Assembly (NCBI GenBank): GCA_038144795.1 | Contig: JAYQOK010000126.1 | Location: 1-11,332, forward strand | Source of the DNA: Candidatus Kuenenia sp. | GTDB lineage: Bacteria; Planctomycetota; Planctomycetia; Pirellulales; UBA1268 | Direction of reading: 5' to 3' | DNA length: 11,332 bases | Shown: one piece after another, positions 1-11,332 of the stretch | Numbering within the stretch: position 1 is the stretch's first letter | Layout of the letters: each line of letters starts with the position of its first letter | Notes under the pieces: model-generated | Database searches by the model: none | The model's input: only the letters and a program-made list of their open reading frames with translations | Told to the model about the DNA's origin: nothing | Program-made: the position numbers and the translations under genes

Positions 1-2095
1 ACTGTGCATTCGTTACCTCATACACCCCAAGATAAAAAGGCTTCGTCAGCGTCACCTCGTGGGCATCTTCGTCTTCCCCCATCATGAACGTGCCCGCCGG
101 TAAGAGCTTCAACTGCATCCCAAGCGAATTGCGTAGCAGAGGCCGTGCAAGAATGTGTTCCCGTTTCAAGGAAAGTCGTAAGGGCTCCGCAATTCTCCGT
201 GCCTGAGCCACCAGTGCCTCTATTCCCGCATGGTTAGGATTGAGCGCTAGGTACTCCTCGCCCACGTCGAGAATCGTCAGCGCCTCCTCAGCACTGATCA
301 CCCCATCTGCCTTTGCGTCCTTGACGATCAAGACAAGCCGACTCTCAATCTCACCAATCTTCCGCACGCGACGGACCACCTCCAGCCCGGCTTCATCCAA
401 ATCCTCATCCACCACGCCCTTCACCGCCGCCAAGGCCGCTCGCGTGTCTCCCGCCTGCAGGGCGGTTTGTGCCCTGGTCACTCGGCCATCCCGGCGCTCC
501 ACCAACTGGCTCTGGATCTTTGCGATGTCCTTGCGATCGCCACGCAGGTCGCGGGCACGCGTCACCAACGGCAAAAGACCGTCATACTCCTTGCGCCCGA
601 TTCGATTCGTGATCTCATCAATAACATGAACGGATTCTGAGTACTGTTTTGCGCAGGTATCAAGCAAACGCGACACGTCACCAGTGCGAAGCCGCTCCGG
701 AATCGTCTCAAGAGCATGAATCGCAGCAAGGTAGTCAAACGCCTCGTGATGGGCTTTCGCTTCGCGAACCTTCTCCGCCACCGCCCGCTCCTGCCGAACC
801 CGCTCCTCGGCTACCTGTGTGCCAAACGACTGTGCCCACTCGGCAAGATCACTCAGGTGGGGTAACGCCTTCGACGCAATTTCTGCCGCGATTCTCGCCG
901 CCTCATCAAATGATAAGTCGGCCAGCAGGGCTTCTGCGGTCGACCGCTTCGCTATGAGCGACTCCCGCAACTCACCCAATAGCTGCGGCTGATTCCCACC
1001 GCATTCACCACACACAAGATCCCAGACCGGGATCTGAGACTCGCACTTCAAGCACGCCGTCCGCATCGCGGCTCCGCACGCCGGATTCCGGCAGAACTTC
1101 CGGGAGAAGTCGGTGTTGACCGTGCCGCAAGAAGAGCACTGCCCCTCTTGAAGTTCCCCTTCAGTCGCGGCCGGTGGCGGCTTCGTACCCGATGGGGTGT
1201 GCTGGACGCCTTTCAGCGCATCCCGCAACTCTCTTGCTGTCTGATATCGATCATCTTTGCGGTCCTCCAGTGCTTTTGTGAGCACATCTTCGAGCTCTGA
1301 AGGAACGTCCCTAAACCGAATGATCTTCGGGCTTCTGCCCGTCACCATCTGGTAGATAGTGGCGGCGAGGCTCCAGAGATCACTGCGGGCATCAACTTCA
1401 CTCGCATCCCGCCGCTGCTCTGGCGGCATGAAGTCGGGCGTGCCCATCACCGCGCCCGTCATCGTCATCTGGTGATCGGTGGCCTCAGCCTTGGCGAGAC
1501 CAAAGTCGGTAAGCTTGGGCAAACCATCCTTGTTAAGCAGCACATTCGCCGGCTTGATGTCGCGATGAATGATCCCGAGGTCGTGAGCCTTGGCGAGGCC
1601 GTCGCAGAGCTGGCAGGCCAGAGCCACGGCGTCTTCTAACGACAAAGCTCCTTCGCGGCAGCGGTCGAGCAGACTCCCGCCGTCCACGTATTCCATGATC
1701 AGAAACGGCCCGTCCTTGGCGCGGCCGTAGTCGTAGATCTGCACGATGTTTGGATGGTTCAAGGCGGCAATGGCCTTGGCCTCGGTGAGAAACCGCATGA
1801 TCGCGGTCTTGCTCCGGGCCGCTTCGCCCAAGATCCGCTTGATTGCCACCTTGCGGTCGAGCCGGGTATCGGTCGCGAGCAGCACCGCCCCCATGCCGCC
1901 TTGACCGAGCGTGCCCTCGACCTTGTAGCGGGCCTCAAGATCGACGACCTCGATGTCGTCGATCACCGTGTCTTGATCACCCAACCGGTCGCCAAGCGTC
2001 CGCTCGTCGCCCAGGCTCATCTCAGCGGTAGAGCGCCGCTTGGCTGCTCCAGCGAACGTGGCTTCGTCGCTAAGGCTTTTTTCGATGTCGTCCAT
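1..2095 (-). CDS. Hanks-type Ser/Thr protein kinase with a double zinc ribbon and a C-terminal FGE-sulfatase (formylglycine-generating-enzyme / SUMF1-like, C-type-lectin fold) domain. Partial: the 3' end lies beyond the window start.
   Basis: Minus-strand translation from ATG (complement of cat 2093..2095) gives MDDIEKSLSDEATF..., then GQGGMGAV (glycine loop), VAIK, HRDIKPANVLL (catalytic loop, complement of about 1554..1586), TDFGLAK (DFG motif, complement of about 1500..1522), then CSSCGTVNTD...CRNPAC...CLKCESQ...CGECGG (complement of about 1000..1150). It reaches the window edge as ...LKLLPAGTFMMGEDEDAHEVTLTKPFYLGVYEVTNAQ, a typical FGE-sulfatase domain start, with no stop through position 2. 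The plus-strand ORFs at 240..629 and 649..957 are low-complexity antisense artefacts. Confidence 0.9.
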   Translation of the reverse strand, partial: MDDIEKSLSDEATFAGAAKRRSTAEMSLGDERTLGDRLGDQDTVIDDIEVVDLEARYKVEGTLGQGGMGAVLLATDTRLDRKVAIKRILGEAARSKTAIMRFLTEAKAIAALNHPNIVQIYDYGRAKDGPFLIMEYVDGGSLLDRCREGALSLEDAVALACQLCDGLAKAHDLGIIHRDIKPANVLLNKDGLPKLTDFGLAKAEATDHQMTMTGAVMGTPDFMPPEQRRDASEVDARSDLWSLAATIYQMVTGRSPKIIRFRDVPSELEDVLTKALEDRKDDRYQTARELRDALKGVQHTPSGTKPPPAATEGELQEGQCSSCGTVNTDFSRKFCRNPACGAAMRTACLKCESQIPVWDLVCGECGGNQPQLLGELRESLIAKRSTAEALLADLSFDEAARIAAEIASKALPHLSDLAEWAQSFGTQVAEERVRQERAVAEKVREAKAHHEAFDYLAAIHALETIPERLRTGDVSRLLDTCAKQYSESVHVIDEITNRIGRKEYDGLLPLVTRARDLRGDRKDIAKIQSQLVERRDGRVTRAQTALQAGDTRAALAAVKGVVDEDLDEAGLEVVRRVRKIGEIESRLVLIVKDAKADGVISAEEALTILDVGEEYLALNPNHAGIEALVAQARRIAEPLRLSLKREHILARPLLRNSLGMQLKLLPAGTFMMGEDEDAHEVTLTKPFYLGVYEVTNAQ

Positions 2096-2263
2096 GATTT
2101 TGCACTCTCCGACGAGTTTCCTCGTCGTGATTCGTGGCTTCTCCCCGCGGCAGGCACACTCAGCCCTCGCTTCCCTCCAACGGGGGTCTTGGTTATAACC
2201 GTTGGATCGGTCTTACGCGATTGGATGGCTCTGGTTTCGCCCCACAAAGCAGGGAGCAAAGGG
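2096..2263. promoter_or_regulatory. Divergent intergenic or promoter region between the kinase (minus) and the SPFH gene (plus). It contains a perfect 7-bp inverted repeat, cgacgag-tttc-ctcgtcg, at 2110..2127.
   Basis: A 168-nt non-coding gap lies between two divergent start codons. The palindrome sits 15 to 32 nt upstream of the kinase ATG. An AGGGAG Shine-Dalgarno-like sequence (2251..2256) lies 7 nt before the 2264 ATG. Confidence 0.35.
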
Positions 2264-4414
2264 ATGTCTGCACCGCTCAAAAATCACCGCTGGTCAACGC
2301 CCGATGAGATCTTCGCCCGCAGCCTTACGCTGGGCGATGCCGAACTCCCCCGCGGCTGGACGAAAAACAGCGTCGTCATCGAGCCCGGCACCAGAGCTTG
2401 TGCCGTAGTCGATGGCAACTTCATCGGCGATCTCCCCGCCGGCGAGTTCACGTTTCATGACTTCCGCGACAAACTGCAGTTTTGGCGGAAAGGCGAAGCC
2501 ACGCTGCTGCTCACCCGAACCGACGTGGTGCGACTGCCGGTCGATTGCAAGGGCATCGTCAGCGCCGACGAGGTGCCGATGGATATCCGCGTCGATGTCG
2601 GCGTGCAGATCGACAACCCCGTCGCGTTCGTCAAGAACATGATGGGCCCTCGAAAAGACTACTCGGTCAAGGAGCTCGCCGAGCGGCTCACCCCGACGGT
2701 GCGGCAGGAGGCCTGGGCGGCTACGGCCCGGATGCGGGTCGATGATCTGCGGGGCCCCGCGATGGTGACGAGAGTCTCCCAGCAGATCGGCTCGGCGATC
2801 TCCGACACGTTCAAGCGGTACGGGCTGAAGGTCTTCAGCATCGAGGGCGTGCTTATGCAGCCCACAGGGATGGAGCGGCACTGGGACAAGGTCAAGGAAA
2901 ACAATATCGAGGTCGCCGACGAACGGCTGACAAACAAGCGGCTCGGCCAGGACATCGGCATCCAGGAAGAGCGGCTGCCACTCGAGGGCAAACTTCGCGA
3001 CCTCCAGCACACTGGCGAGCGGGCCGCCATGGAGTCAGATACGACCCACGAGACCGCCAAGCTTGCCCACGAGGTAAGTACGCTGAGTGACCGGATTCCG
3101 CTCTTTGAAAAACTTCGCGACGCCGCGATCTCCAACGAGTTTGACAAGGCAAAGAGTGCCGAGGAGCTCAAGCAGCTCCTCGCCGCCGTAGACAAGCAGC
3201 GGCTGCTCCGCAAGGAGGAAATGGAGCAGTTGGCCGAAGGCTTCGATGAGAGAAAGGCCGATCGACAGTCGCTGCGGGATCATATCGTCACTGTGCTCGA
3301 CATCAATCGGGAGCAGGAAGTTGATGCCCTCCGGCTCGCCGTCGAACACTCGCTCGCGATTGCCGCTAAGAAAAATGAACTAGAACTCGCCGAGGCGACC
3401 AACTCGGTGGAAAACCTGGAGTGGCGCAACGAGATCGCCCGTGAGATCGAACTCGCCGAGAAGCGTCGCGAAGAGCGGAAGAAAGATCTCGCTGCGAAGT
3501 GGGAACGCATCCGCGAGACCCAGCGGCAGAAGCAGGATTCGTCATGGGAGAAGCTGCTTCATGAGCAGCGTGAGGAGTCGATCCGCACCGAACTGGCCTA
3601 CAAGGAGGCGGAGCGAAAGCGGCGACTGCAGCTGCTCGAGGTGGAAAATGCCGCCGAGGTCGAGCGGCAGAAAATCGTCGCCGAGCGTCTGCGGCGGGAG
3701 TTCGAACTGGAAATCGGTTCCCGCGAGTCCGACGCCCAGTTTGACCGGCTGAAGCGTGTTCAGGACATGAACTTCGAGGGTCACGCCCGCCAGGCCCAAC
3801 TCGACGCCGAGCTCAAGAGCCAGGCCGAACAGCGGGCCAACACGCACGAGCTCGAGCGGCTGAAGACGATGGGCACGTTGAGTGCGGAAGCCCTGATCGC
3901 CACCAGCGGCACAGACAATGCCAAGGCTCTGGCCGACCTCAAGATCCAGGAGGCCAAATCACAGGCGGAGATTCAGGCGGCCAGTCGTGGGGATCAGGAG
4001 GCTCTCAACCAAGAACGGCTTCGTATGTATGAAAAACTCCACGAGGCCGAGCGGGGCAAGGCCGACGCGATCGCGAGCGTCTTCAATCAGGCGCTCAAGG
4101 GCCAGCAGGATGCCGTCGCCCAGATGATCGGCGGGTTGGCTGCGGCCCACACCCCGCCGCGGCCGGTTTCGCCAGCGGCTCCGCCTCCGGTCGGCACCGC
4201 GGTGGCAGAGTGGCATATCGCCATTGGCGGCAATCAAAGTGGTCCCCATTCCGCCCGGCAAGTTCAGGTGATGGTGCAGCAGGGCCAGCTCGGCACCGAT
4301 GTCCTCGTCTGGAAGGCCGGCATGGCCGGGTGGGTCGCGATCGTGGAGTGCGCGGAGTTTTCGAGTGCCTTTGCGACGGTGCCACCGGTGCCGCCGCCAC
4401 CGCCACGGGCGTGA
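2264..4414 (+). CDS. Soluble flotillin-like protein: N-terminal SPFH/band-7 domain, long E/R/K-rich coiled coil, proline-rich linker and a C-terminal DUF4339/GYF-like domain.
   Basis: Start chosen as ATG 2264 with an AGGGAG RBS. The ORF-track start at 1754 would overlap the opposite-strand kinase. SPFH-like segment: NSVVIEPGTRACAVVDGNFIGDLPAGEF...LLLTRTDVVRLPVDCKGIVSADEVPMDIRVDVGVQIDNPVAFVKNM...YGLKVFSIEGV. About 350 aa of heptad-like E/A/R/K/Q-rich sequence follow (about 2900..3950), then PPRPVSPAAPPPVG. The C-terminus reads WHIAIGGNQSGPHSARQVQVMVQQGQLGTDVLVWKAGMAGWVAIVE (DUF4339-like: W..GP...L..G.I..T.VW..GM..W). No TM segment was seen. Stop TGA at 4412..4414. Confidence 0.8.
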   Translation: MSAPLKNHRWSTPDEIFARSLTLGDAELPRGWTKNSVVIEPGTRACAVVDGNFIGDLPAGEFTFHDFRDKLQFWRKGEATLLLTRTDVVRLPVDCKGIVSADEVPMDIRVDVGVQIDNPVAFVKNMMGPRKDYSVKELAERLTPTVRQEAWAATARMRVDDLRGPAMVTRVSQQIGSAISDTFKRYGLKVFSIEGVLMQPTGMERHWDKVKENNIEVADERLTNKRLGQDIGIQEERLPLEGKLRDLQHTGERAAMESDTTHETAKLAHEVSTLSDRIPLFEKLRDAAISNEFDKAKSAEELKQLLAAVDKQRLLRKEEMEQLAEGFDERKADRQSLRDHIVTVLDINREQEVDALRLAVEHSLAIAAKKNELELAEATNSVENLEWRNEIAREIELAEKRREERKKDLAAKWERIRETQRQKQDSSWEKLLHEQREESIRTELAYKEAERKRRLQLLEVENAAEVERQKIVAERLRREFELEIGSRESDAQFDRLKRVQDMNFEGHARQAQLDAELKSQAEQRANTHELERLKTMGTLSAEALIATSGTDNAKALADLKIQEAKSQAEIQAASRGDQEALNQERLRMYEKLHEAERGKADAIASVFNQALKGQQDAVAQMIGGLAAAHTPPRPVSPAAPPPVGTAVAEWHIAIGGNQSGPHSARQVQVMVQQGQLGTDVLVWKAGMAGWVAIVECAEFSSAFATVPPVPPPPPRA

Positions 4415-4444
4415 TCACTGCATCGCTGATGACGGAAGGCTTGT

Positions 4445-5461
4445 ATGGACGCGGTTGATCTGGTGGTTTTACGCCCACGTCTGCTCGTTGACTGGGGCGA
4501 ACTGCCCCAGCTTGGCCGCGTGGCTAGGCCGCTTTTTAGCCTGCTCGGCCCGAGTGCCGCAGGGCGGCCAAGCGTGCAGGTGACCGTCGATCGCGGGCTC
4601 GATCATGACGCCACCGACCCCCTTCGGCAGGTGCGAACCGAGGAATCGGGTTTGTGGACTTTTTACGTGCCGTTCAGCCTCACAAGCAACGGCCTGCCGG
4701 CGCTTCCCGGGCTCTATGTGATCGATGTCGCCGTCACGTTTCCCCATGCGCTGGCCGGGCAGCCGCGATTCCTGCAGACGCGGATTCGCCTCAACATTCC
4801 AGACGCCAGCAGCGGTCAGCGGGAGCTCGTCATCGACGGCGATGGCCAGTCGGTAGTCAATCTCGCCGGCCACGATCTGCGGTCATTCAGCCGCGTCGTG
4901 CTCAAGGGAGACGACAGCGCGATCATCAACCTGCAAAACTTTTCACAGCAACAGGAGGAGGCGAAAGCGACCGAAGCACCGGTCGTCTTCGAATACGAAC
5001 TCAAGGTCAATCACGACATCCACGAGCGATTGCCCGAGATTGTCGAGGTCTCCCAGCCGAGCAAGACAGATGCTCTCTCGCTCATCTGTGGTGACCGCCG
5101 CATCCATGTGATCGCCAAGAAGCGTGCCACGCTGGGCCGGCAGCGGCGGCCGGAAAACGACATCTGCCTGCGGTTTCTTCCCCGGTCCGCCGAGCATGAT
5201 GAAGGAAGCCGCGCCATCTCAAGGACCCACATCGCTCTTGATCTCACCGACGACGGGCTGGTGCTGGTCGACGAAGGCTCCGCGAAGGGGGTTGACGTCG
5301 ACTGCGACCCCGTGAAGGGCGAAAAGACATTCACGTATCTCGACGCCCACGGCAGCCGCCACATCGACTTGCCATCCCCACTCTCGTCATCGCTGTCGCT
5401 CGAAATGAGCTCACGGTTTTTGGCCGTGATCCCGACGATCCAGATTTTCGTTCTGATCTGA
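4445..5461 (+). CDS. Protein with a C-terminal forkhead-associated (FHA) domain. The N-terminal roughly 210 aa have unknown function.
   Basis: FHA signature in the C-terminal third: ATLGRQRRPENDICL...GSRAISRTHIALDLTDDGLVLVDEGSAKGVDVDCDPVKGEKTFTYLDAHGSRHIDL. This gives the GR, the SR.H and the D.gS..G..V-like motifs in the expected order. GGAAGG lies 5 nt upstream of ATG 4445. GC3 bias is strong through about 5400. The last roughly 20 codons are S/L-rich and low-bias, so the exact C-terminus is uncertain. Confidence 0.65.
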   Translation: MDAVDLVVLRPRLLVDWGELPQLGRVARPLFSLLGPSAAGRPSVQVTVDRGLDHDATDPLRQVRTEESGLWTFYVPFSLTSNGLPALPGLYVIDVAVTFPHALAGQPRFLQTRIRLNIPDASSGQRELVIDGDGQSVVNLAGHDLRSFSRVVLKGDDSAIINLQNFSQQQEEAKATEAPVVFEYELKVNHDIHERLPEIVEVSQPSKTDALSLICGDRRIHVIAKKRATLGRQRRPENDICLRFLPRSAEHDEGSRAISRTHIALDLTDDGLVLVDEGSAKGVDVDCDPVKGEKTFTYLDAHGSRHIDLPSPLSSSLSLEMSSRFLAVIPTIQIFVLI

Positions 5462-5568
5462 AGTGGGATGACGTCTGCTTCGAGACGGCAGGCGAACCAG
5501 CCTCGAGGCTCTGGCAGGTCGCAAAATCGTCCGGCATCGAGACAGTTCGCCTGCGCAGGCTCAATAAT

Positions 5569-8500
5569 GTGGCCGATGAGGAATATGTCGTCCGCTACCG
5601 TCACGCCACGCTTGGCCGATCCGCCAAGGACCATGCGATCGCAATACCGATCCCCGATCACTTGAAGGGGGACCTGCGGCTGATCTACGCCGGGCGGATG
5701 TTCTGGTTGCACTCGGGGGGCCGAGCCGAGGTGGCAGTCGATGGCGAGCCGATCTCGGGGCCGTGCCTTGTGCCGCTGAGGTTCGGCCAGTGTCTGTCCA
5801 TCGATTCGCTGGTGATCCACGTAGCCCGTATGGCCCAGTGCCAGCTTGACGAGAATCCCATCCTGAAGGCCCCACCAGTCAGGCGCCCCGTTGTCCCCGC
5901 GCCACTGACACCGTCAGCCGCGATTCCTCCGCCATTGCCGCCGGCGATCGCAATCAAGGCGGGGCATTCCGAGCCGCCGCCATTGCCTCCGGTGACGCCG
6001 CTGCGGTCGGGCGGCCCGCCGCCCAGCGATCTGGCTCCAGTGGCGGCATCCTCCGGTGGCGCCCAGGCCGCTGCTGCCGATTCGATGGCCGTCGCCCCGC
6101 CCTCGAGTTCCATCGATCCGGTTCGCGATGCGCTCGCCTCGGTCGCCCTCATCACCTGCCGCGTGGGGCACGGGTCGGCCTTCATCGCAAAGCCCGGCCT
6201 GCTCGTTACCAACTACCATGTCATCGCCGACGATGCTGTCGAGGATCTCGCGGCGCTGTTTATTGATCCGGTGACCCACGCCCGCCGCGAATTCTGCGTG
6301 TCGCTTCTCGGTGAAGATCCCGAGCATGACATGGCGTTCTTGGCGGTCGATGCAGACCTGCCGCCGCTGGGGATCAGTTCACACTTCCAGCATCAAAACG
6401 GCCACCGCATCGTCGTCATCGGCAGCCCCGGGGTGGGCGGCAACGGCGAGCGGCTCGAAAATGTCGTCACCGACGGTCGGCTCGGGCCTGTGTACTCTGA
6501 TTTTGCATCGCCTTCCCGCTGGTCGCTCAGCATCACTCTCAATCCCGGCAACTCCGGTGGGCCGGTGCTCGACGCGCAGACGGGCGAAGTGCTAGGGGTC
6601 ACCGTCGCCAAGTTTACGACCGTGGAGGGCTTGGCTCTGGCCGTCCCCCACGACGTACTGACCAAGGGCCTTGAGCAGGCGGCCACCGCATCGGGTGACG
6701 AGATCGGCCGGGCCGAGTCAGCGCACCGGCAGCGCTATTGCCTCCGGAAGATCTCGGCGTTTGTGGCGAGCGCGAATGTCGCCTTGCACGAGTTTGCCGA
6801 GCATTGCGATCAGATCGAATACGGCATGACGACCGTCTCGGGCAACTCGCTGATCGGCAACGTTGGCAGCGGGTTTGCCAACAATGTTGTCGCCGCCCTC
6901 AATAACCTTGCGGAGGAGGTCGCCGGGCAGATCAATCGCCTGCAGGACGATCGCTGGTGCCGCACGGTGATCCGGGACGATTTTGCGCAGGCCTGGGCGA
7001 GCCTCGACGATCTGCGATACGCCCTTGCCGATGTTGCGCCATCCCGATCGCGGGCCCTGGTGCTCGAAAGTTTGGGGGCCACGCTCGCCGCGGTCGAGGA
7101 ACTGTGTGAATCGATCCGGATCGAAATTGATGGCTCGCTGCTCAGTGGCAAGACCGTCTTTGACGCCGCCACGGAATCATCGGCCGGCCATTCGCTCGCG
7201 CTGCAGCAGATCGCCATGGGGGGACACGTCGCCCGGAAGAAGCCCAAGCGGCGGTATCTCACCAAGTCGCGATTTACGATGGCCTGCACCTGCCCGACAA
7301 AGCTCTTCTACACGGCCAAGCCGGGAGAATACGCGAGCGTCTGGACCACCGATCCCTTGATGGAATCCCTCGCCAACGAGGGCAACCGGGTCGGGGCCCT
7401 GGCACGGCTCTATTTTCCTGAAGGCGTGCTCGTGGACACACTCGAGCATGACGAGGCGGTGCGGCAGACCGGTGCACTCCTCGAACAGCCTCAGGCGACG
7501 ATCTTCGAGGCGGCGATCCGCCACGGTGATCTCTTCATTCGGGCCGACGTGCTCGGTAAGACACCGACCGGCATCGATCTCTACGAGGTGAAGTCGAAGG
7601 GCTACTCCGAAGACGACGACGGCGACTTCACGACGAAGTTTGGTGTCGCCGCCGATTGGCTCCGATATATCCGCGACATCGCCTTCCAGAAGCATGTCGT
7701 GTCGCAGGCTTTCCCCGGTGTTTCTGTCCGGGCCCACCTTTACCTGCCGGATAAGTTCCGGGCGGCCGTCTCCGATGATCTCGCCATGAAGGCGGCGGCC
7801 CTGTTGAACGGTGAAGAAGCCTCCCTGACCGCCGAGGAGCTGGCGAGCCCGCTCTTGCGGGCGATCAATGTCGATGCCGTGTGTGATCTCGTGCTCAACG
7901 ACTCGTACACGCTCGGTGACAAAACCCTGTCGTTCGTTGAGTACGTGGCCGCCCTTGCCGACCACTACTGCCAGGATCAGAAGTTTCCGCCGCAGCTTTC
8001 CCCGACCTGTTTCACGTGCGAATTCGACGCGTCGGCGTTTGCCCTGGCCACGGGCGAGAAATCCGGGAAACGGGAGTGCTGGGCAAGCCTTCTGGGCTGG
8101 ACGGATCGAGACTTCGCCACGCCGCAGGTCTTCGAGATTGGCAATCTCCCGGCCGCCAAGAAGCGTTCGCTCCTCGAAGAGCGACGGCTTCACATGCACC
8201 AGCTCGAGGAGGCCGATATCGCACCACAGGCCGATGGGGAGCCGGGGCTGTCGCAATCGCAGCGGCAATGGATGCAGGTCACCAAGGCCGTCGGCGGCGA
8301 CACATCTTCGCACCTGGACCGCAATAATCTGCGGGCGGTCATGGTCGGCTGGAAGTATCCGCTCCACTTCATCGATTTCGAGACCTGCCGGGCCGTGATT
8401 CCGTTCCACCGCGGCAGTCGCTCCCGGGAGTTGGTGGCGTTTCAGTTTTCGCACCATGTGATGCATGCCGACGGGGCAGTCGAACACGCCGGTGAGTTTT

Positions 8501-9186
8501 TGTGTGCCCAGCACGGCGTTGATCCCGGCGTCGCCTTTGTCGAGGCATTGCAGCGGGAGCTGGGCGGAGATAACGGAGCAGTTTTGCACTATGCCCCGCA
8601 CGAGGTTTCCACGCTGCGGGCCCTCGCGGCCCAGATTCGTTCCCATCGCTCGGAGATCCCCAATGCGGATGAGTTGCTTTCGTTCATCGCCACGCTCGCC
8701 CCGTTTGGCGACGAGGTTGCGAATCGGCAGGTCATCGATCTCTGCAATCTGGTGAAGCGGTTCTACTACTCGCCGAGCATGCGGGGATCTAACTCGATCA
8801 AGGACGTCTTGCCGGCGGTACTCGACGAGTCGGAATTCCTGAAGCAAAAATACTCGCAGCCGATCTACGGCGCTGTGGGCGGGATTCCCAGCCGCAACTT
8901 CTCCGGCATGCGGTGGGTGGAGGAATACGACGGCCACATCCGCGATCCGTACTCCCTGCTGCCCCCGATCGACGGCGTTCATAATCCTACAGAAAAAGGC
9001 AATGGGCAGGTTCCCCGACTGCTCCGGAATGGCGGAGCCGCGATGCAGGCCTACGCCGATCTGCAGTTGGCCAGTTGGACTCCGCAGCAGCGGCAGGCCG
9101 TGGAACAGGCTCTGCTGCGATACTGCGAACTCGACACGCTTGCGATGGTCTTCATCGTCGAGGCGTGGCGGGAGTGGTGTCGGTAG
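5569..9186 (+). CDS. Large multidomain protein. Domains in order: N-terminal FHA-like domain, proline-rich linker, trypsin-like serine protease (S1/Trypsin_2 type), helical region, PD-(D/E)XK nuclease fold (DUF2779-like), and a C-terminal RNase-H/DnaQ-like region with a DFET motif.
   Basis: GTG start at 5569 (MADEEYVV...). The reading frame is open back to 5296 with no ATG/GTG/TTG, so the true start is uncertain. Residues 1-88: an FHA-like fold pattern (TLGRS...HSGGRAEVAVDGEPISGPCLVPLRFGQCLSIDSLVIHV) lacking a clear SR.H. Residues 100-185: a P/A-rich linker. Protease: LLVTNYHVIADD (His codon 6217..6219), EHDMAFLAVD (Asp codon 6328..6330), TLNPGNSGGPVL (Ser codon 6553..6555). Nuclease fold: RRYLTKSRFTMACTCPTKLFY...FIRADVLGKTPTGIDLYEVKSKGYSEDDDGDF (D...D/E-x-K arrangement, about 7250..7760). 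Later come CFTCEFD and GWKYPLHFIDFETCRAV (DFET, Asp codon 8374..8376), then LHYAPHEVSTL. Strong GC3 bias throughout. Stop TAG at 9184..9186. Confidence 0.85.
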   Translation: MADEEYVVRYRHATLGRSAKDHAIAIPIPDHLKGDLRLIYAGRMFWLHSGGRAEVAVDGEPISGPCLVPLRFGQCLSIDSLVIHVARMAQCQLDENPILKAPPVRRPVVPAPLTPSAAIPPPLPPAIAIKAGHSEPPPLPPVTPLRSGGPPPSDLAPVAASSGGAQAAAADSMAVAPPSSSIDPVRDALASVALITCRVGHGSAFIAKPGLLVTNYHVIADDAVEDLAALFIDPVTHARREFCVSLLGEDPEHDMAFLAVDADLPPLGISSHFQHQNGHRIVVIGSPGVGGNGERLENVVTDGRLGPVYSDFASPSRWSLSITLNPGNSGGPVLDAQTGEVLGVTVAKFTTVEGLALAVPHDVLTKGLEQAATASGDEIGRAESAHRQRYCLRKISAFVASANVALHEFAEHCDQIEYGMTTVSGNSLIGNVGSGFANNVVAALNNLAEEVAGQINRLQDDRWCRTVIRDDFAQAWASLDDLRYALADVAPSRSRALVLESLGATLAAVEELCESIRIEIDGSLLSGKTVFDAATESSAGHSLALQQIAMGGHVARKKPKRRYLTKSRFTMACTCPTKLFYTAKPGEYASVWTTDPLMESLANEGNRVGALARLYFPEGVLVDTLEHDEAVRQTGALLEQPQATIFEAAIRHGDLFIRADVLGKTPTGIDLYEVKSKGYSEDDDGDFTTKFGVAADWLRYIRDIAFQKHVVSQAFPGVSVRAHLYLPDKFRAAVSDDLAMKAAALLNGEEASLTAEELASPLLRAINVDAVCDLVLNDSYTLGDKTLSFVEYVAALADHYCQDQKFPPQLSPTCFTCEFDASAFALATGEKSGKRECWASLLGWTDRDFATPQVFEIGNLPAAKKRSLLEERRLHMHQLEEADIAPQADGEPGLSQSQRQWMQVTKAVGGDTSSHLDRNNLRAVMVGWKYPLHFIDFETCRAVIPFHRGSRSRELVAFQFSHHVMHADGAVEHAGEFLCAQHGVDPGVAFVEALQRELGGDNGAVLHYAPHEVSTLRALAAQIRSHRSEIPNADELLSFIATLAPFGDEVANRQVIDLCNLVKRFYYSPSMRGSNSIKDVLPAVLDESEFLKQKYSQPIYGAVGGIPSRNFSGMRWVEEYDGHIRDPYSLLPPIDGVHNPTEKGNGQVPRLLRNGGAAMQAYADLQLASWTPQQRQAVEQALLRYCELDTLAMVFIVEAWREWCR

Positions 9187-9375: not shown

Positions 9376-9503
9376 TCAGGGCAAGGCGGAAGCCCAGGTT
9401 GTTGTTGCGGTTCGACGGGTCGTTCCTGTTGCGGTTCGCCGACCGGCAGTTCCTGGCGGTGTTGTTCCAGCTGCCGCCCCGGTTGACCCGGTCGGAGGCT
9501 CAT
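9376..9503 (-). repeat. DGR template repeat (TR), minus strand. The 5' boundary is at about 9500 or beyond; homology may continue into the RT 3' end.
   Basis: Read on the minus strand, 9376..9500 translates to GGSWNNTARNCRSANRNRNDPSNRNNNLGFRLAL, with nine AAC codons. It aligns base for base with 11205..11332 (offset 1829). About 25 of about 30 differences are at TR adenines (plus-strand T), and five TR adenines are unchanged. The 23 nt at the 3' end, minus-strand cctgggcttccgccttgccctga, are identical in both copies. Confidence 0.85.
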
Positions 9504-10510
9504 GGATCGCCCACCGGCAGGGATTTAATCACAGCATCGCGGTAGCGCCAACTCCGTGTATCGGCGCCCCGGGCAAACGCGGTCACCGCCTCAAGTCGGG
9601 TCTGCAATCCCCGCTCATCGAGCAGGCCGAGCCGATAAGCCTTGCAGAGGGTGCGGACCCGGCGAAGGTATCGCCGTCGACTGCGTTTCGAGAGAAGCGT
9701 GTGGGTCGGCAGGATCCTACAGCCGAGAAAATCAACGCCTCGCAATGACTCGACGACGCCCGCGGGTTTGAACTCCAAGCCGAGGCTGTTCGCCAGAAAC
9801 TCCCGGCAGCAGGCCTCAGCGGCGACGAGTCTACTGCGATCATTACTCCAGAGCACCAGGTCATCCATATAGCGGACATAGCCCCGAATCCGAAGATGTT
9901 CTTTGACATACCGATCAAGGAATCCCAGATAAAAATTGGCAAAGTGCTGCGACATGAGGCTGCCGATTGGGAGACCGCGGCCGATGCCGCCGCGAAAGCC
10001 GGCTATGATCGCGGTAAAGAGTTTAAGGAGCCGGCGATCCTTGAAACGGGCTGCGAGCCTATCGCGCAGCTGGGCATGCGGTATCGAATCAAAGCACTTC
10101 CGCACATCGAGGTGCACCCTCCACGAGAATGTTCGCGCAAATCGTGCTGCCCTCACCACTGCCCGCTCCCGTCCCTTACCCGGTCGACAGGCAAAGGAAT
10201 CGGCTATGAGCCACCGCTCGAAGTGTGGTTCACAGACGTTGATAATTGCGTGATGGAGAACCCGCTCCGCGAACGCCGGGGCCGTGATAATCCTTCGCTT
10301 GGGGTCGTGAATCTCGAACTGGTGAAATTGACCCACCGGATACGTGCCGCCCCGCAGGCCAGCCGCCATCTCCCCCAGCCGATTGTCAAGGTCATCGGTG
10401 AAGGCGATCACCTCGCGGCGCTGCCGCTTCCCTCGTGCCGCGCGCCAGAACCCACGGCGGAGGTTTTCCATTTCGATAATCGCTTCAAACAGATTGCTCG
10501 CCCGCCGCAT
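9500..10510 (-). CDS. Diversity-generating-retroelement reverse transcriptase.
   Basis: The minus-strand ORF contains MRRASNLFEAIIEMENLRRGFWRAARGKRQRREV (N-terminus typical of DGR RTs), ...RGLPIGSLMSQHFANFYL (the DGR-diagnostic IGxxxSQ motif), and GYVRYMDDLVLWS (YMDD catalytic motif). Start chosen at ATG 10510 (complement of cat 10508..10510), giving 336 aa. The track's start at 10969 adds 153 low-complexity residues overlapping the upstream gene and is rejected. Stop TGA is the complement of 9500..9502. Confidence 0.9.
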   Translation of the reverse strand: MRRASNLFEAIIEMENLRRGFWRAARGKRQRREVIAFTDDLDNRLGEMAAGLRGGTYPVGQFHQFEIHDPKRRIITAPAFAERVLHHAIINVCEPHFERWLIADSFACRPGKGRERAVVRAARFARTFSWRVHLDVRKCFDSIPHAQLRDRLAARFKDRRLLKLFTAIIAGFRGGIGRGLPIGSLMSQHFANFYLGFLDRYVKEHLRIRGYVRYMDDLVLWSNDRSRLVAAEACCREFLANSLGLEFKPAGVVESLRGVDFLGCRILPTHTLLSKRSRRRYLRRVRTLCKAYRLGLLDERGLQTRLEAVTAFARGADTRSWRYRDAVIKSLPVGDP

Positions 10511-10988
10511 CGGTCGCCTCAGGAACCGCCACGTCAGGTAAGCTGGCCAGAATGCCGAGCAACTGGTCAGCGTATTTCTCGACTCGGGCATGCCCGACGC
10601 CATCGATTCGCCCGAGATCCGTGGCGGATCGGCACCGCTGCTGCACGGCCTGCGCCAGTTGCTCATTCGTAAACACGGCATACACCGGAACGGCCTCGCG
10701 CTGCGCGATTTCTTTTCGGAGCTCTCTGAGCCGCGAGAAAACCACAAACTCATCGGCCGACAGCACCTGCTTGTAGTCGATCCGACTGCGGCCAAGCGGC
10801 AGCCCGCGCCGACTGTCGCCAGCCCCGGACGGAAGATGATCGACACAGACCGCCCAGAAAGAATCGGAGCCCTGTTCGACAAAGCGCCGGTCGATTGCCA
10901 CGACTCGGAGGCTGCCGAGAAACGCGTTGATTTCAGACTCGATGGTCGCCGGATCAAGCACCGGAACAATAAAAAACTTTAGCGGCAT
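10485..10988 (-). CDS. DGR accessory protein with a C-terminal HRDC domain (HRDC-type accessory instead of Avd).
   Basis: Minus-strand ORF MPLKFFIVPVLDPATIESEINAFLGS...DEFVVFSRLRELRKEIAQREAVPVYAVFTNEQLAQAVQQRCRSATDLGRIDGVGHARVEKYADQLLGIL. The last about 70 residues fit the HRDC pattern (F..LR..R..LA....VP.Y.IF.D..L..MA...P.T..EL..I.GVG..K...YG). Start taken as ATG 10988 (complement of cat 10986..10988). The track's 11174 start adds an R/G-rich low-complexity stretch that overlaps the target-gene stop. The gene overlaps the RT start by 26 nt. Confidence 0.7.
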   Translation of the reverse strand: MPLKFFIVPVLDPATIESEINAFLGSLRVVAIDRRFVEQGSDSFWAVCVDHLPSGAGDSRRGLPLGRSRIDYKQVLSADEFVVFSRLRELRKEIAQREAVPVYAVFTNEQLAQAVQQRCRSATDLGRIDGVGHARVEKYADQLLGILASLPDVAVPEATDAAGEQSV

Positions 10989-11166
10989 GAGCACAGCACC
11001 GACAAAGGGCACGGCCAAACGGCTTTCGTGGTTACGATTTTTTCGATTGCGCGCTTCGCTGCGCTCAGCGCCGCGGCTGCCGCCGCATACGTCTTTCCCA
11101 TCTCCCGCTCCGCTTCGGCCCCTCCGGTCGCCGGCATCCGCCGGACTCCCTCCGAGCCTCGCTTTG

Positions 11167-11332
11167 CTACTCAACCGCCTCCGCCGGACTTGCTCCAGAC
11201 GGACTCAGGGCAAGGCGGAAGCCCAGGATGACGTCGCGGAACGACGGGACGCCCCAGTAGCGGTCCGCCGACCGGCAGAGCCCGGCGGCGGAGCGCCCGC
11301 TGCCGCCCCCGAAGACCCCGGCGGCGGCACCA
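11167..11332 (-). CDS. 3' end of the DGR target gene: C-terminal C-type-lectin / FGE-like fold carrying the variable repeat. Partial: most of the gene lies beyond the window end.
   Basis: Minus-strand frame: GAAAGVFGGGSGRSAAGLCRSADRYWGVPSFRDVILGFRLALSPSGASPAEAVE, stop TAG (complement of cta 11167..11169). The ...CRSA.RYW......R...LGFRLAL ending is the common CLec-fold DGR VR terminus. Each AAC codon of the TR is replaced by D, Y, G, F, V, I, L, S or R codons. Confidence 0.8.
   Translation of the reverse strand, partial: GAAAGVFGGGSGRSAAGLCRSADRYWGVPSFRDVILGFRLALSPSGASPAEAVE
11205..11332 (-). repeat. DGR variable repeat (VR), truncated by the window end.
   Basis: Position-by-position alignment to the TR at 9376..9503 shows adenine-specific differences, detailed in the TR entry. 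The invariant GC-rich 23-nt 3' block at 11205..11227 is a candidate IMH-like element. Confidence 0.8.

What the first reader, a model, noticed from the sequence alone, without database searches (positions are those of the whole stretch)
1..9186. Candidate phospho-signalling module: Ser/Thr kinase divergent from an operon of SPFH scaffold, FHA protein and FHA-like protease-nuclease
FHA domains read phospho-threonine produced by Hanks kinases. Here a kinase gene shares a 168-nt divergent promoter region with an operon in which two of three products carry FHA or FHA-like domains, and the third is a flotillin-like SPFH scaffold of the kind that organises protease complexes. One plausible logic is a kinase-gated protease/nuclease effector, a possible defence or stress-triggered self-targeting system.

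Two caveats. Kinases with FGE domains and FHA proteins are individually abundant in Planctomycetes, so the adjacency could be coincidental. The N-terminal FHA-like domain of the large protein lacks an obvious SR.H phospho-binding motif and may be a non-phospho variant.
Basis: inference. Interest (0 to 1): 0.6.

Follow-up and report, generated by a model that had tools for sequence, protein, structure and literature searches.

The report
Kinase–FHA–SPFH module beside hypermutation cassette
A planctomycete gene cluster that recurs across genomes pairs sensor-like protein kinases with a flotillin-like scaffold and a phospho-reading protease–nuclease, probably a new wiring for bacterial conflict or defence systems, although here the effector gene is broken by a one-base deletion.

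Summary
The genes are real and their linkage is not chance, but the anatomy needs correcting.

- **One gene, not two.** The "338-aa FHA protein" and the "1205-aa protein" are one ~1580-aa gene in all 32 full-length homologues. Here a 1-nt deletion splits it (ATGGAG→ATGAG, 5405-5409). GTG 5569 is an internal Val codon.
- **Effector.** Ig-like domain, FHA1 (GR…SRxH kept), degenerate FHA2, PPPLPP linker, trypsin-like protease, then a complete DUF2779 protein (Cas4-like nuclease plus DEDDy exonuclease).
- **Upstream gene.** An SPFH fold (Foldseek prob 1.0), a coiled coil and a GYF_2 domain.
- **Conserved neighbourhood.** Kinase(s) | SPFH | Ig-FHA-FHA recurs in every locus with enough flank. At 26–45% identity the FHA module stands alone or is fused to TIR.
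- **Kinase tail.** All linked kinases share an N-terminal tail with near-invariant Thr13, Thr33 and Thr43 (DTVIDD), candidate FHA ligands.
- **DGR.** Directly downstream lies a diversity-generating retroelement: reverse transcriptase (RT), HRDC protein, template repeat (TR) 9376-9499 and variable repeat (VR) 11205-11328, with 23 of 27 mismatches at TR adenines. Linked kinases elsewhere carry VR-like FGE/C-type-lectin (CLec) ends.

Best reading: a kinase-to-FHA relay gating a protease/nuclease, probably a conflict system. No function has been tested.

The parts
2..2095 (-). Hanks-type Ser/Thr kinase, truncated at its 3' end by the contig end. Order: N-terminal Thr tail, kinase domain, double zinc ribbon, helical region, start of an FGE/CLec domain.
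   Evidence: Pkinase 161.9 bits and DZR. Catalytic motifs intact and no transmembrane segment. FGE-like 'LPAGTFMMG...' at the end of the translation. Homologues are Pkinase+DZR+FGE-sulfatase.
1928..2095 (-). Conserved about 55-aa N-terminal tail of the kinase: SLSDEAT13F...SLGDERT33LG...DT43VIDDIEVVDL. These are candidate phospho-Thr docking sites.
   Evidence: Across 28 module-linked kinase N-termini: T13 in 28/28, T33 in 27/28, T43 in 22/28, D46 in 27/28.
2096..2263 (.). 168-nt divergent intergenic region between the kinase and the SPFH gene.
   Evidence: Start codons fixed by comparison with homologues. GGGAG lies upstream of ATG 2264. The sigma-70 scan was uninformative.
2264..4414 (+). 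SPFH, long coiled coil and GYF_2 protein (716 aa), with no transmembrane segment.
   Evidence: AF2 model m5f997a30c96c. Foldseek hits to stomatin, prohibitin, HflK/C and flotillin at prob 1.0. GYF_2 56 bits. Profile hit to the GltJ GYF domain 7z3c at 8.5e-13. Kyte-Doolittle hydropathy (19-residue window) maximum 1.32.
2498..2863 (+). SPFH (band-7) domain, residues about 79-200.
   Evidence: pLDDT about 80-88. TM 0.70-0.76 and rmsd about 3.2-3.4 Å to isolated stomatin SPFH domains.
4211..4360 (+). GYF_2 domain.
   Evidence: PF14237, residues 650-699, E = 2.9e-15.
4445..9186 (+). One effector gene (about 1580 aa when corrected), interrupted by a 1-nt deletion. Order: Ig-like domain, FHA1, FHA2, Pro-rich linker, trypsin-like protease, helical region, Cas4-like nuclease, DEDDy exonuclease.
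   Evidence: 32 full-length homologues at 100% query cover. tblastn runs in frame 2 over 4445-5368, then frame 1 over 5407-9183.
4472..4909 (+). N-terminal all-beta, Ig-like domain of unknown function.
   Evidence: AF2 pLDDT 71-88 for residues 10-120. Only generic Ig-like Foldseek hits, all with E > 0.01.
5117..5404 (+). FHA1, with the canonical GR...SRxH phosphopeptide-binding motifs.
   Evidence: PF00498 19.8 bits here and above the cut-off in relatives. Motif conservation shown.
5405..5409 (+). Frameshift site: ATGAG where homologues have ATGGAG (loss of one G).
5566..5838 (+). FHA2, an FHA-like domain. It keeps GR but lacks SxxH.
   Evidence: The equivalent domain matches Pfam FHA or Yop-YscD_cpl in distant relatives such as P0208, P0193 and P0194. 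Alignment.
5926..6000 (+). Proline-rich linker with two PPPLPP motifs. It is a candidate ligand of the GYF_2 domain.
   Evidence: Direct repeat D11. A Pro-rich stretch is present in 33 of 37 effector-fused homologues and is rare in stand-alone forms. The GltJ GYF domain binds a Pro-rich sequence (PMC11135422).
6172..6600 (+). Trypsin-like (S1C/HtrA-like) serine protease domain with an intact His/Asp/Ser triad and no PDZ domain.
   Evidence: Trypsin_2 75.4 bits. PDB profile hits to DegP and HtrA down to 2.5e-14. TNYHV, HDMAFL and GNSGGP present.
7231..9186 (+). A complete DUF2779-family protein fused in frame. It comprises a Cas4-like PD-(D/E)xK region (D1035, E1048, K1050, Cys residues) and a DEDDy-type RNase H-like exonuclease.
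   Evidence: More than 4000 hits, of which the best listed are stand-alone proteins at 41-46% identity and 96-100% cover. DUF2779 75 bits. Motifs. Family description in PMC13621843 and PMC3985635.
9376..9499 (-). DGR template repeat (TR), rich in AAC codons.
   Evidence: (D1).
9500..10510 (-). DGR reverse transcriptase. The start is approximate.
   Evidence: RVT_1 63.9 bits. PADLOC RT 141 bits. Start region. Relatives all carry the HRDC-RT cassette.
10485..10988 (-). HRDC-domain DGR accessory protein. The start is approximate.
   Evidence: HRDC 61 bits. Conserved upstream of the RT in most relatives.
11167..11332 (-). 3' end of the DGR target gene, holding the variable repeat (VR 11205-11328). 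The gene runs off the right contig end.
   Evidence: 23 of 27 TR/VR mismatches fall at TR adenines. The protein ends ...ILGFRLAL....

Best explanation
The window carries a conserved planctomycete module that relays a signal from Hanks kinases to an FHA-bearing effector.

**Components**
1. One to six paralogous, soluble kinases per locus. Each has a kinase domain, a zinc ribbon and a variable helical region, and most end in one or two FGE/CLec ligand-binding domains. Each has the same short N-terminal tail with three conserved threonines.
2. A soluble SPFH, coiled-coil and GYF_2 protein.
3. An Ig-like-FHA-FHA protein. It stands alone in most relatives. In this clade it is fused to a trypsin-like protease and a whole DUF2779 nuclease. 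In one relative it is fused to TIR.

**Proposed mechanism (inferred, not shown)**
- Ligand binding by a kinase's CLec domain activates the kinase. In this genome at least one CLec domain is rewritten by the adjacent DGR.
- The kinase phosphorylates the conserved Thr tail, on itself or on a neighbour.
- FHA1 of the effector reads the phospho-threonine and is recruited or oligomerised.
- The SPFH-GYF protein acts as the assembly platform, possibly by holding the effector's PPPLPP linker.
- The protease and nuclease are then unleashed. The likely outcome is degradation of invader or host macromolecules, an abortive-infection or conflict type of response.

In this contig the effector carries a 1-nt deletion. 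It is therefore either inactivated or mis-assembled.
For: **Shown directly**
- Domain content and intact catalytic motifs.
- A single effector gene in 32 homologues.
- The kinase | SPFH | Ig-FHA-FHA neighbourhood recurs in about 11 fused-clade loci and in three distant lineages, although kinase orientation and number vary.
- Linked kinases form one family, with 46-95% identity over the first 110 residues (tail plus start of the kinase domain) against 28-44% for the kinases beside the TIR variant. They share the tail, with T13 in 28/28, T33 in 27/28, and T43 with D at +3.
- FHA1 keeps GR and SRxH across the family.

**Supporting a conflict role**
- A bona fide DGR lies next door.
- VR-like 3' ends of FGE domains occur in linked kinases. 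They differ from the window TR at 53-64% of A positions but only 18-28% of other positions.
- A TIR-fused variant exists.
- An integrase fragment sits at the island edge in L090, and integrase and DUF3987 genes occur in L003.
- An MmeI-type methyltransferase with an SNF2 helicase is a neighbour in L094.

**From the literature**
- DGR-diversified kinase-CLec proteins and DGR-linked conflict systems with trypsin-like effectors are described (PMC7517822, PMC7159879, PMC10907252).
- A bacterial GYF domain binds a proline-rich sequence (PMC11135422).
Against: - There is no experimental evidence for any step.
- The SPFH and FHA proteins match no PADLOC model.
- The module was not found in viral contigs or plasmids.
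- Relatives of the DGR reverse transcriptase (47-57% identity) never carry the SPFH or FHA genes in their flanks. None of the other module loci showed a reverse transcriptase within 10 kb. DGR adjacency is therefore specific to this contig, and diversification of the linked kinases elsewhere is only suggested.
- The left-hand kinase's FGE domain is cut off, so its VR status is unknown.
- The window's FHA1 is just below the Pfam cut-off, and its AF2 model was low-confidence.
- Most stand-alone Ig-FHA-FHA relatives have no Pro-rich stretch, although the upstream SPFH proteins checked (L009, L010) keep a GYF domain. This weakens the GYF-linker idea.
- DUF2779 proteins are widespread stand-alone proteins and quasi-essential in a minimal Mycoplasma. 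The nuclease part need not be a killing effector.
- No phosphatase gene is present.
Confidence: 0.55

Rival explanations
1. The module is a housekeeping or stress quality-control unit, not an immune system. An SPFH cage regulates a serine protease, as HflK/C does for FtsH or stomatin for its partner protease. A DNA-end-processing nuclease is tuned by Ser/Thr phosphorylation in response to envelope, membrane or DNA stress.
For: - The fold matches SPFH proteins that are known to partner proteases, such as HflK/C-FtsH and QmcA-YbbJ.
- DUF2779 is a very widespread stand-alone protein (more than 4000 hits at 41-46% identity).
- DUF2779 is quasi-essential in JCVI-syn3.0 (PMC13621843).
- Most Ig-FHA-FHA relatives carry no effector domain at all.
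- Kinase-FGE proteins are generally common in Planctomycetota (PMC11032199).
Against: - Distribution is patchy. Only a handful of the species genomes scanned have the module.
- Island-like context, with integrase genes or fragments beside some loci.
- Kinase copy number varies from 1 to 6 per locus.
- A DGR and VR-like ends are present, and a TIR-fused variant exists.
- There is no transmembrane anchor or membrane protease partner.
- The effector is dispensable or broken here.
Confidence: 0.2
2. In this particular genome the module is a decaying relic. The frameshift is a real inactivating mutation of a costly effector, so nothing downstream of residue 321 is made and the locus is non-functional here.
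For: - A one-base deletion lies in a non-slippery context (ATGGAG to ATGAG) and is absent from five homologous loci.
- No ATG, GTG or TTG occurs in the new frame before 5569, which is an internal Val codon in the homologues.
- No database protein is identical to the 1205-aa ORF, although the neighbouring SPFH protein is on record from NCBI. This is consistent with a pseudogene call.
- The window also lacks the Zn-ribbon and 187-aa accessory genes seen in relatives.
Against: - There is a single lesion. Both reading-frame halves are otherwise intact, with all catalytic motifs preserved at 84-93% identity to intact homologues.
- That pattern fits a very recent mutation equally well as a consensus or assembly error in a metagenome-assembled genome (MAG).
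- No reads are available to decide.
Confidence: 0.4
3. The adjacency of kinase and FHA genes is coincidental, because both are abundant in Planctomycetes.
For: FGE-linked kinases are among the commonest kinase architectures in the phylum (PMC11032199).
Against: - The same kinase family, with the same N-terminal tail, flanks the SPFH and FHA genes in every locus with enough flank.
- This includes three lineages at 26-45% identity and different effector fusions.
Confidence: 0.03

Closest known systems
DGR-associated conflict systems with CLec/FGE sensors and trypsin-like, caspase-like or TIR effectors (Kaur et al. 2020, PMC7159879; Doré et al. 2024, PMC10907252)
   Same: - A hypervariable C-terminal FGE/CLec domain with a TR/VR pair and an HRDC/RT cassette.
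- Multiple paralogous targets, with tandem CLec domains in some.
- Trypsin-like or TIR effectors nearby.
- Found in bacteria with complex lifestyles.
   Different: - The switch in those systems is an NTPase (STAND, MoxR-vWA or a GTPase), and coupling is through effector-associated adaptor domains.
- Here the sensor output is a Hanks kinase, the coupling element is an FHA pair, and an SPFH-GYF protein is present.
- None of those features appears in the passages retrieved by term searches of those papers.
- The DGR is adjacent only in this contig.
DGR-diversified Ser/Thr kinase-CLec proteins of cyanobacteria (Vallota-Eastman et al. 2020, PMC7517822)
   Same: The kinase plus C-terminal CLec/FGE architecture serves as a DGR target, with many paralogues per genome.
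   Different: That work proposes regulatory tuning. The passages retrieved from it name no FHA partner and no partner genes. Here a fixed downstream partner set (SPFH-GYF and Ig-FHA-FHA) is conserved.
Kinase-FHA activation pathways: PpkA-Fha1 of type VI secretion and PknF-Rv1747 (PMC3953482, PMC3138270; titles and abstracts listed)
   Same: A Hanks kinase is encoded next to an FHA protein whose phospho-Thr binding triggers assembly or activation of a machine. Rv1747 also carries two FHA domains.
   Different: - Different output: a protease and nuclease, not a secretion system or transporter.
- No PP2C phosphatase.
- Several kinases per locus, each with ligand-binding CLec domains.
- No sequence relationship beyond the domains themselves.
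SPFH-protease assemblies: HflK/C-FtsH, stomatin or QmcA with NfeD/YbbJ, flotillin cages
   Same: The SPFH domain followed by a long coiled coil matches these structures, and it is encoded next to a protease.
   Different: - No transmembrane or hairpin anchor.
- The protease is a cytoplasmic trypsin-like domain inside a multidomain protein.
- A C-terminal GYF_2 domain is added.
- The SPFH Pfam models are below threshold.
DUF2779 (PF11074) solo Cas4-like and exonuclease proteins
   Same: The C-terminal 650 aa align end to end with stand-alone family members (41-46% identity, 96-100% cover). The D/E/K and DEDDy motifs are kept (PMC13621843, PMC3985635).
   Different: Here the protein is fused behind FHA and protease domains. 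Only this clade shows the fusion. The biochemical activity of the family is untested.
Kinase-based anti-phage systems (PD-T4-6, Stk2, the MADS kinase MAD6, the KKP kinase-kinase-phosphatase module)
   Same: The kinase domain scores highly against the PD-T4-6 and mad6 models.
   Different: Those hits cover only the generic kinase domain (residues about 53-256). PD-T4-6 is listed as a single model with no partner. Nothing else in the locus matches PADLOC.

Membership tests
FHA domain (PF00498) | Score at or above the Pfam gathering cut-off (20.7 bits) | tested here: inconclusive
   The window's FHA1 scores 19.8 bits. Orthologous domains score 21.5-60 bits, and 56 of 67 family members match at E <= 0.001.
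FHA domain (PF00498) | Conserved phosphopeptide-binding residues (GR; S-x-x-H) | tested here: met
   FHA1 has GR...ISRTH, invariant in the fused clade and kept in most relatives. FHA2 lacks S-x-x-H, so this is not met for FHA2.
FHA domain (PF00498) | Binding of phospho-threonine peptides | not testable with these tools
   Needs isothermal titration calorimetry (ITC) or fluorescence polarisation (FP) with pT13, pT33 and pT43 tail peptides.
SPFH / band-7 superfamily | SPFH alpha/beta fold followed by a coiled coil | tested here: met
   The AF2 model has pLDDT about 80-88 over residues 79-200. Foldseek gives prob 1.0 to stomatin, prohibitin, HflK/C, flotillin and QmcA, with TM up to 0.76.
SPFH / band-7 superfamily | Pfam Band_7 or Band_7_1 above the gathering score | tested here: not met
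   Band_7_1 scores 19.6 against 24 bits. Band_7 is only 'weak' in homologues. The profile against PDB sequences found no SPFH hit.
SPFH / band-7 superfamily | Membrane anchor (N-terminal transmembrane segment or hairpin) | tested here: not met
   The maximum 19-residue hydropathy is 1.32, so no transmembrane segment is predicted.
S1C / HtrA-like trypsin peptidases (PF13365) | Trypsin_2 match and a His-Asp-Ser triad | tested here: met
   75.4 bits against a cut-off of 27.6. The triad motifs are invariant. PDB hits to DegP and HtrA. No PDZ domain was found, unlike HtrA proper.
DUF2779 (PF11074) Cas4-like and exonuclease family | PF11074 match, full-length collinearity with family members, and conserved D/E/K and DEDD residues | tested here: met
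   75 bits against 23.3. Cover of 96-100% against stand-alone members. FIRAD, YEVKSK, FIDFET and RYCELD present. The Cas4-like part gives no Pfam or PDB sequence hit of its own.
Hanks-type Ser/Thr kinase | Pkinase match with Gly loop, VAIK Lys, HRD and DFG | tested here: met
Diversity-generating retroelement | Reverse transcriptase, a TR/VR pair with adenine-specific mismatches, and the VR at the 3' end of a CLec/FGE target | tested here: met
   RVT_1 63.9 bits. The 124-nt pair has 23 of 27 mismatches at TR adenines, and the TR is rich in AAC. An HRDC accessory is present. Only 54 aa of the target are visible, so the CLec fold of the target is inferred from its '...LGFRLAL' end.
Catalogued anti-phage defence systems (PADLOC 2.0) | Matches to all components of a catalogued system | tested here: not met
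   The SPFH and FHA parts give 0 hits. The protease domain hits only RT-Protease_XI and PDC-M35A models, and the kinase hits only generic kinase-domain models.

The most novel reading that the evidence does not exclude
The module may be an anticipatory, repertoire-based sensing system built on phospho-signalling. A DGR hypermutates the ligand-binding CLec domains of an array of cytoplasmic Hanks kinases. Whichever variant binds an invader-derived ligand phosphorylates a shared N-terminal Thr tail. A single FHA adaptor or effector on an SPFH-GYF platform reads that tail and then executes the response through a protease, a Cas4-like/DEDDy nuclease or TIR. That would be a receptor-repertoire, kinase, phospho-reader, executioner logic not described for prokaryotic immunity.
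Probability: 0.3. Interest if true: 0.85.

Novelty: new variant of a known kind. Interest (0 to 1): 0.66.

Why it matters
**If the relay works as proposed**
- Hanks kinases and FHA domains would join NTPase switches (STAND, MoxR) as a signal-transduction core of DGR-linked bacterial conflict systems.
- DGR-diversified kinase-CLec proteins are widespread and their function is debated. This would give them a concrete downstream partner.

**Testable handles**
- Three conserved threonines in the kinase tail.
- The FHA1 GR/SRxH pocket.
- The PPPLPP-GYF pair.
- Three catalytic centres in the effector.

**Also of note**
- This would be a soluble SPFH-GYF scaffold outside the usual membrane context.
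- It places the uncharacterised DUF2779 nuclease family as an effector module.

**Practical point**
The split "FHA protein" and "protease-nuclease" in this contig should be annotated as one frameshifted gene.

Tried and rejected
- An exact-sequence look-up of the window's SPFH protein found no contig. Yet P0052 is identical on an 11,332-bp NCBI contig, so no extra flank exists.
- A profile search of the SPFH alignment against PDB sequences found only the GYF domain. The SPFH call had to rest on a fold search.
- AF2 of the N-terminal 320 aa was confident only for the Ig-like domain. FHA1 had pLDDT below 50. Foldseek then gave only generic Ig-like hits with E > 0.01.
- Pfam at E <= 10 on the Cas4-like segment, the helical middle and FHA2 gave nothing useful.
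- A PDB profile search of the C-terminal 650 aa gave no hit.
- PADLOC and NCBIfam gave nothing for the SPFH or FHA parts.
- The GTDB genome scan returned mostly unrelated HtrA-like proteases. Only L006-L010 were relevant.
- Viral contigs and plasmids gave no relatives of the Ig-FHA module.
- Rfam gave no hit.
- The promoter and terminator scan was at background level.
- Programmed -1 frameshifting was considered and rejected. GAAATGAG is not a slippery heptamer, and homologues simply have one more G.
- I tested whether the DGR is a constant part of the module, and it is not. 34 RT relatives carry HRDC-RT with FGE or distant kinase targets, but no SPFH or FHA genes.
- The Zn-ribbon (53-61 aa) and 185-187-aa accessory ORFs seen in relatives are absent from the window.

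Full report
**1. What is in the window**

The window is a complete 11,332-bp NCBI metagenomic contig. P0052 is 100% identical to the SPFH protein and lies on an 11332-bp contig. The closest relatives are annotated as Planctomycetia MAGs.

On the minus strand, 2..2095 encodes a Hanks kinase.
- Pkinase scores 161.9 bits and a double zinc ribbon is present.
- The GQGGMG, VAIK, HRD and DFG motifs are intact, and no hydrophobic segment is present.
- The 3' end, where an FGE-sulfatase/C-type-lectin (CLec) domain begins, runs off the contig.
- The 168-nt spacer (2096-2263) and both start codons agree with homologues.

**2. The first plus-strand gene (2264..4414, 716 aa)**

- Pfam gives only a sub-threshold Band_7_1 hit (19.6 against 24 bits) and a clear C-terminal GYF_2 domain.
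- A profile search against PDB sequences sees only the GYF domain of Myxococcus GltJ (7z3c, 8.5e-13).
- An AlphaFold2 model built on 21 homologues is confident (pLDDT about 80-88) for residues 79-200. It predicts about 400 residues of long helices and then the GYF domain.
- Foldseek against the PDB returns only SPFH proteins at the top: stomatin, prohibitin, HflK/C, flotillin and QmcA. Probability is 1.0, with TM 0.70-0.76 and about 3.3 Å rmsd to isolated stomatin SPFH domains.
- The "flotillin-like scaffold" is therefore supported at fold level.

**3. The second and third "genes" are one gene**

- All 32 full-length homologues of the 1205-aa ORF are 1578-1654 aa and cover the query 100%.
- By tblastn they align to frame 2 over 4445-5368 and then frame 1 over 5407-9183.
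- At 5405-5409 the window reads ATGAG. Five homologous loci read ATGGAG or ATGGAC, which encode Met-Glu or Met-Asp.
- One G is missing. The GTG at 5569 is an internal Val codon, and there is no other start codon in the new frame before it.
- The context is not a slippery site, so I reject programmed frameshifting.
- Whether this is an assembly error or a real, recent inactivation cannot be decided without reads. Everything else in both halves is intact.

**4. Anatomy of the corrected effector (about 1580 aa)**

- **Ig-like domain.** An all-beta domain (AF2 pLDDT 71-88 for residues 10-120) with no specific structural relative.
- **FHA1.** It scores 19.8 bits in the window, and the orthologous domains score 21.5-60 bits. 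56 of 67 relatives match Pfam FHA at E <= 0.001. The GR and SRxH motifs are conserved.
- **FHA2.** It is homologous to domains that score as FHA or Yop-YscD_cpl in distant relatives.
- **Proline-rich linker.** It holds two PPPLPP motifs.
- **Protease.** A trypsin-like domain with an intact triad and no PDZ domain.
- **Helical region.** It follows the protease.
- **DUF2779 nuclease.** The last 650 aa align end to end (96-100% cover, 41-46% identity) with stand-alone DUF2779 proteins among more than 4000 hits from many phyla. That family is described as a Cas4-like PD-(D/E)xK nuclease followed by an RNase H-like 3'-5' exonuclease (PMC13621843, PMC3985635). The D/E/K triad, the Cys residues, DxE and Yx3D are all present here.
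- The Cas4-like part gives no Pfam or PDB sequence hit of its own. That assignment rests on family membership and motifs.

**5. Is the neighbourhood more than chance?**

Yes. Every related locus with enough flank shows kinase(s) | SPFH-coiled-coil(-GYF) | Ig-FHA-FHA(-effector).
- Fused-effector loci: L001, L003-5, the P0009 contig and L086, L088, L089, L090/91, L094 and L095-97, at 61-84% effector identity.
- L087 is a protease-only variant without DUF2779.
- Kinase number (1-6) and orientation (divergent, co-directional or convergent) vary, but adjacency does not.
- The pattern persists where sequence identity has fallen to 26-45%. In L009 (a Mariniblastus MAG) and L010 (a Pirellula MAG) the Ig-FHA-FHA unit is a stand-alone protein of 521 or 527 aa.
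- In L093 the unit is fused to an N-terminal TIR domain.
- The short contig L092 (4.4 kb) shows the SPFH gene but no kinase.
- A scan of 1.84 billion cluster representatives finds 141 relatives of the Ig-FHA1 unit. Most are stand-alone proteins of about 520 aa. The protease/nuclease fusion is therefore a derived state of an adaptor-like module.

**6. A feature that ties the kinases to the FHA reader**

- All module-linked kinases share a roughly 55-residue N-terminal tail: SL[SG]DEAT-F..., SLGDERT-LG..., D-T-VIDDIEVVDL.
- Thr13 is invariant (28/28). Thr33 is present in 27/28 and Thr43 in 22/28. Asp sits at +3 of Thr43 in 27/28.
- pTxxD is a classical FHA ligand pattern. This is established knowledge of FHA specificity and was not tested here.
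- The tail also occurs as small stand-alone ORFs or fragments in L003 and L094.
- These sites make the kinase-to-FHA hypothesis directly testable.

**7. The DGR next door (outside the finding's coordinates)**

- On the minus strand the order is: target gene 3' end with the VR (11205-11328), an HRDC protein, the reverse transcriptase, and the TR (9376-9499).
- 23 of 27 TR/VR mismatches fall at TR adenines. The TR is rich in AAC codons, and the VR protein ends ...ILGFRLAL, as FGE/CLec targets do.
- In homologous loci the gene convergent with the effector is a kinase-DZR-FGE protein, with tandem FGE domains in some.
- Segments matching the window's TR occur at the ends of those FGE domains. They differ at 53-64% of TR-adenine positions against 18-28% elsewhere.
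- This suggests, but does not prove, that the linked kinases are DGR targets.
- Conversely, 34 relatives of the RT (38-57% identity, most 47-57%) nearly all have the HRDC-RT cassette, with FGE-only or distant kinase-FGE targets. None has SPFH or FHA genes nearby, and no other module locus shows an RT within 10 kb.
- The DGR is therefore an associate of the kinase-FGE genes, not a fixed part of the module.

**8. Mechanism**

Shown:
- the domain set and the intact active sites;
- the single-gene structure of the effector;
- the conserved three-part neighbourhood;
- the shared Thr tail;
- the DGR.

Inferred:
- CLec-domain ligand binding activates a kinase, which phosphorylates the tail.
- FHA1 reads the phospho-threonine and recruits or activates the effector.
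- The SPFH-GYF protein provides an oligomeric platform. It may bind the PPPLPP linker, by analogy with the GltJ GYF domain binding the AglZ proline-rich sequence (PMC11135422).
- That last link is weak. Stand-alone Ig-FHA-FHA proteins mostly lack a Pro-rich stretch.

Evidence for a conflict or defence role is contextual:
- the DGR;
- the TIR variant;
- an integrase fragment at the island edge in L090, and integrase plus DUF3987 in L003;
- a neighbour pair of MmeI-type methyltransferase and SNF2 helicase in L094;
- patchy distribution.

Against it:
- no PADLOC match for the SPFH or FHA parts;
- the DUF2779 family is widespread and possibly housekeeping.

**9. Comparison with what is known**

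- DGR-diversified kinase-CLec proteins are described (PMC7517822).
- DGR-linked conflict systems with trypsin-like or TIR effectors are described (PMC7159879, PMC8195603, PMC10907252).
- Those systems switch through STAND, MoxR or GTPase NTPases and effector-associated adaptor domains.
- In term searches of those papers, FHA appears only as a sporadic effector-side domain. I found no SPFH-GYF plus Ig-FHA-FHA plus kinase-array architecture in the retrieved passages.
- Full-text literature searches for it also found nothing.
- Functionally the closest analogues are the PpkA-Fha1 (type VI secretion) and PknF-Rv1747 kinase-FHA pairs.
- I therefore rate this a new variant of a known kind.

**10. 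Verdict**

Functional linkage of kinase, SPFH and FHA-effector genes is well supported by comparative genomics. The gating mechanism and the defence role remain hypotheses.
- In this contig the effector is disrupted.

Noticed in passing
window 9376-11332 (minus strand): A complete DGR cassette lies outside the finding's coordinates. It comprises the TR (9376-9499), the RT (about 9500-10510), an HRDC accessory gene (about 10485-10988) and the VR (11205-11328) in a target gene cut by the contig end. 23 of 27 mismatches fall at TR adenines.
   Followed up: yes
window 5405-5409: A one-base deletion (ATGGAG to ATGAG) splits the effector gene. It may be an assembly error or a recent pseudogenisation.
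   Followed up: partly
L003 1243-1482 and 19950-20096; L094 7125-7301: Small ORFs or fragments encode only the conserved kinase N-terminal Thr tail, with at most the first residues of the kinase domain. They could be remnants of kinase duplication or free decoy or docking peptides.
   Followed up: no
L087 4123-4308; L088 1049-1210; L095 4092-4277; L001 8434-8997; L088 8208-8771; L095 11424-11981: Two further conserved accessory genes occur in many related loci. One is a 53-61-aa zinc-ribbon protein between the kinase and the SPFH gene. The other is a 185-187-aa protein with no Pfam hit, just downstream of the effector. Both are absent from the window, where the DGR occupies the downstream position.
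   Followed up: partly
L093 3631-5745 (P0217): A distant relative fuses a TIR_2 domain to the N-terminus of the Ig-FHA unit. An SPFH-coiled-coil gene (without a GYF match) lies upstream, and kinase fragments lie at both contig ends.
   Followed up: partly
L094 1-6942: The module sits next to an MmeI/Eco57I-type methyltransferase and an SNF2-family helicase, a defence-island-like neighbourhood.
   Followed up: no
L010 259-7042: Upstream of the Pirellula-MAG module lie three genes: a protein with two GYF_2 domains, a Mg-chelatase/ComM-like AAA+ protein, and a protein with HIRAN plus sub-threshold TerB and GYF_2 matches. GYF domains recur in this neighbourhood.
   Followed up: no
L006, L008: Contigs carrying near-identical or closely related copies of the module are binned as 'Candidatus Kuenenia sp.' and 'Cyanobium sp.' MAGs. 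All other relatives are Planctomycetia or Pirellulales-like, so L008 at least is probably mis-binned.
   Followed up: no
L097 2918-7795: In one relative the effector is called 95 aa shorter (1533 aa), with an 84-aa opposite-strand ORF between it and the SPFH gene. This may be another disrupted copy.
   Followed up: no
L001 9685-10656; L086 9809-11707: Some linked targets carry tandem FGE/CLec domains, each ending in a VR-like segment. L086 also has a 251-aa FGE-only gene.
   Followed up: partly
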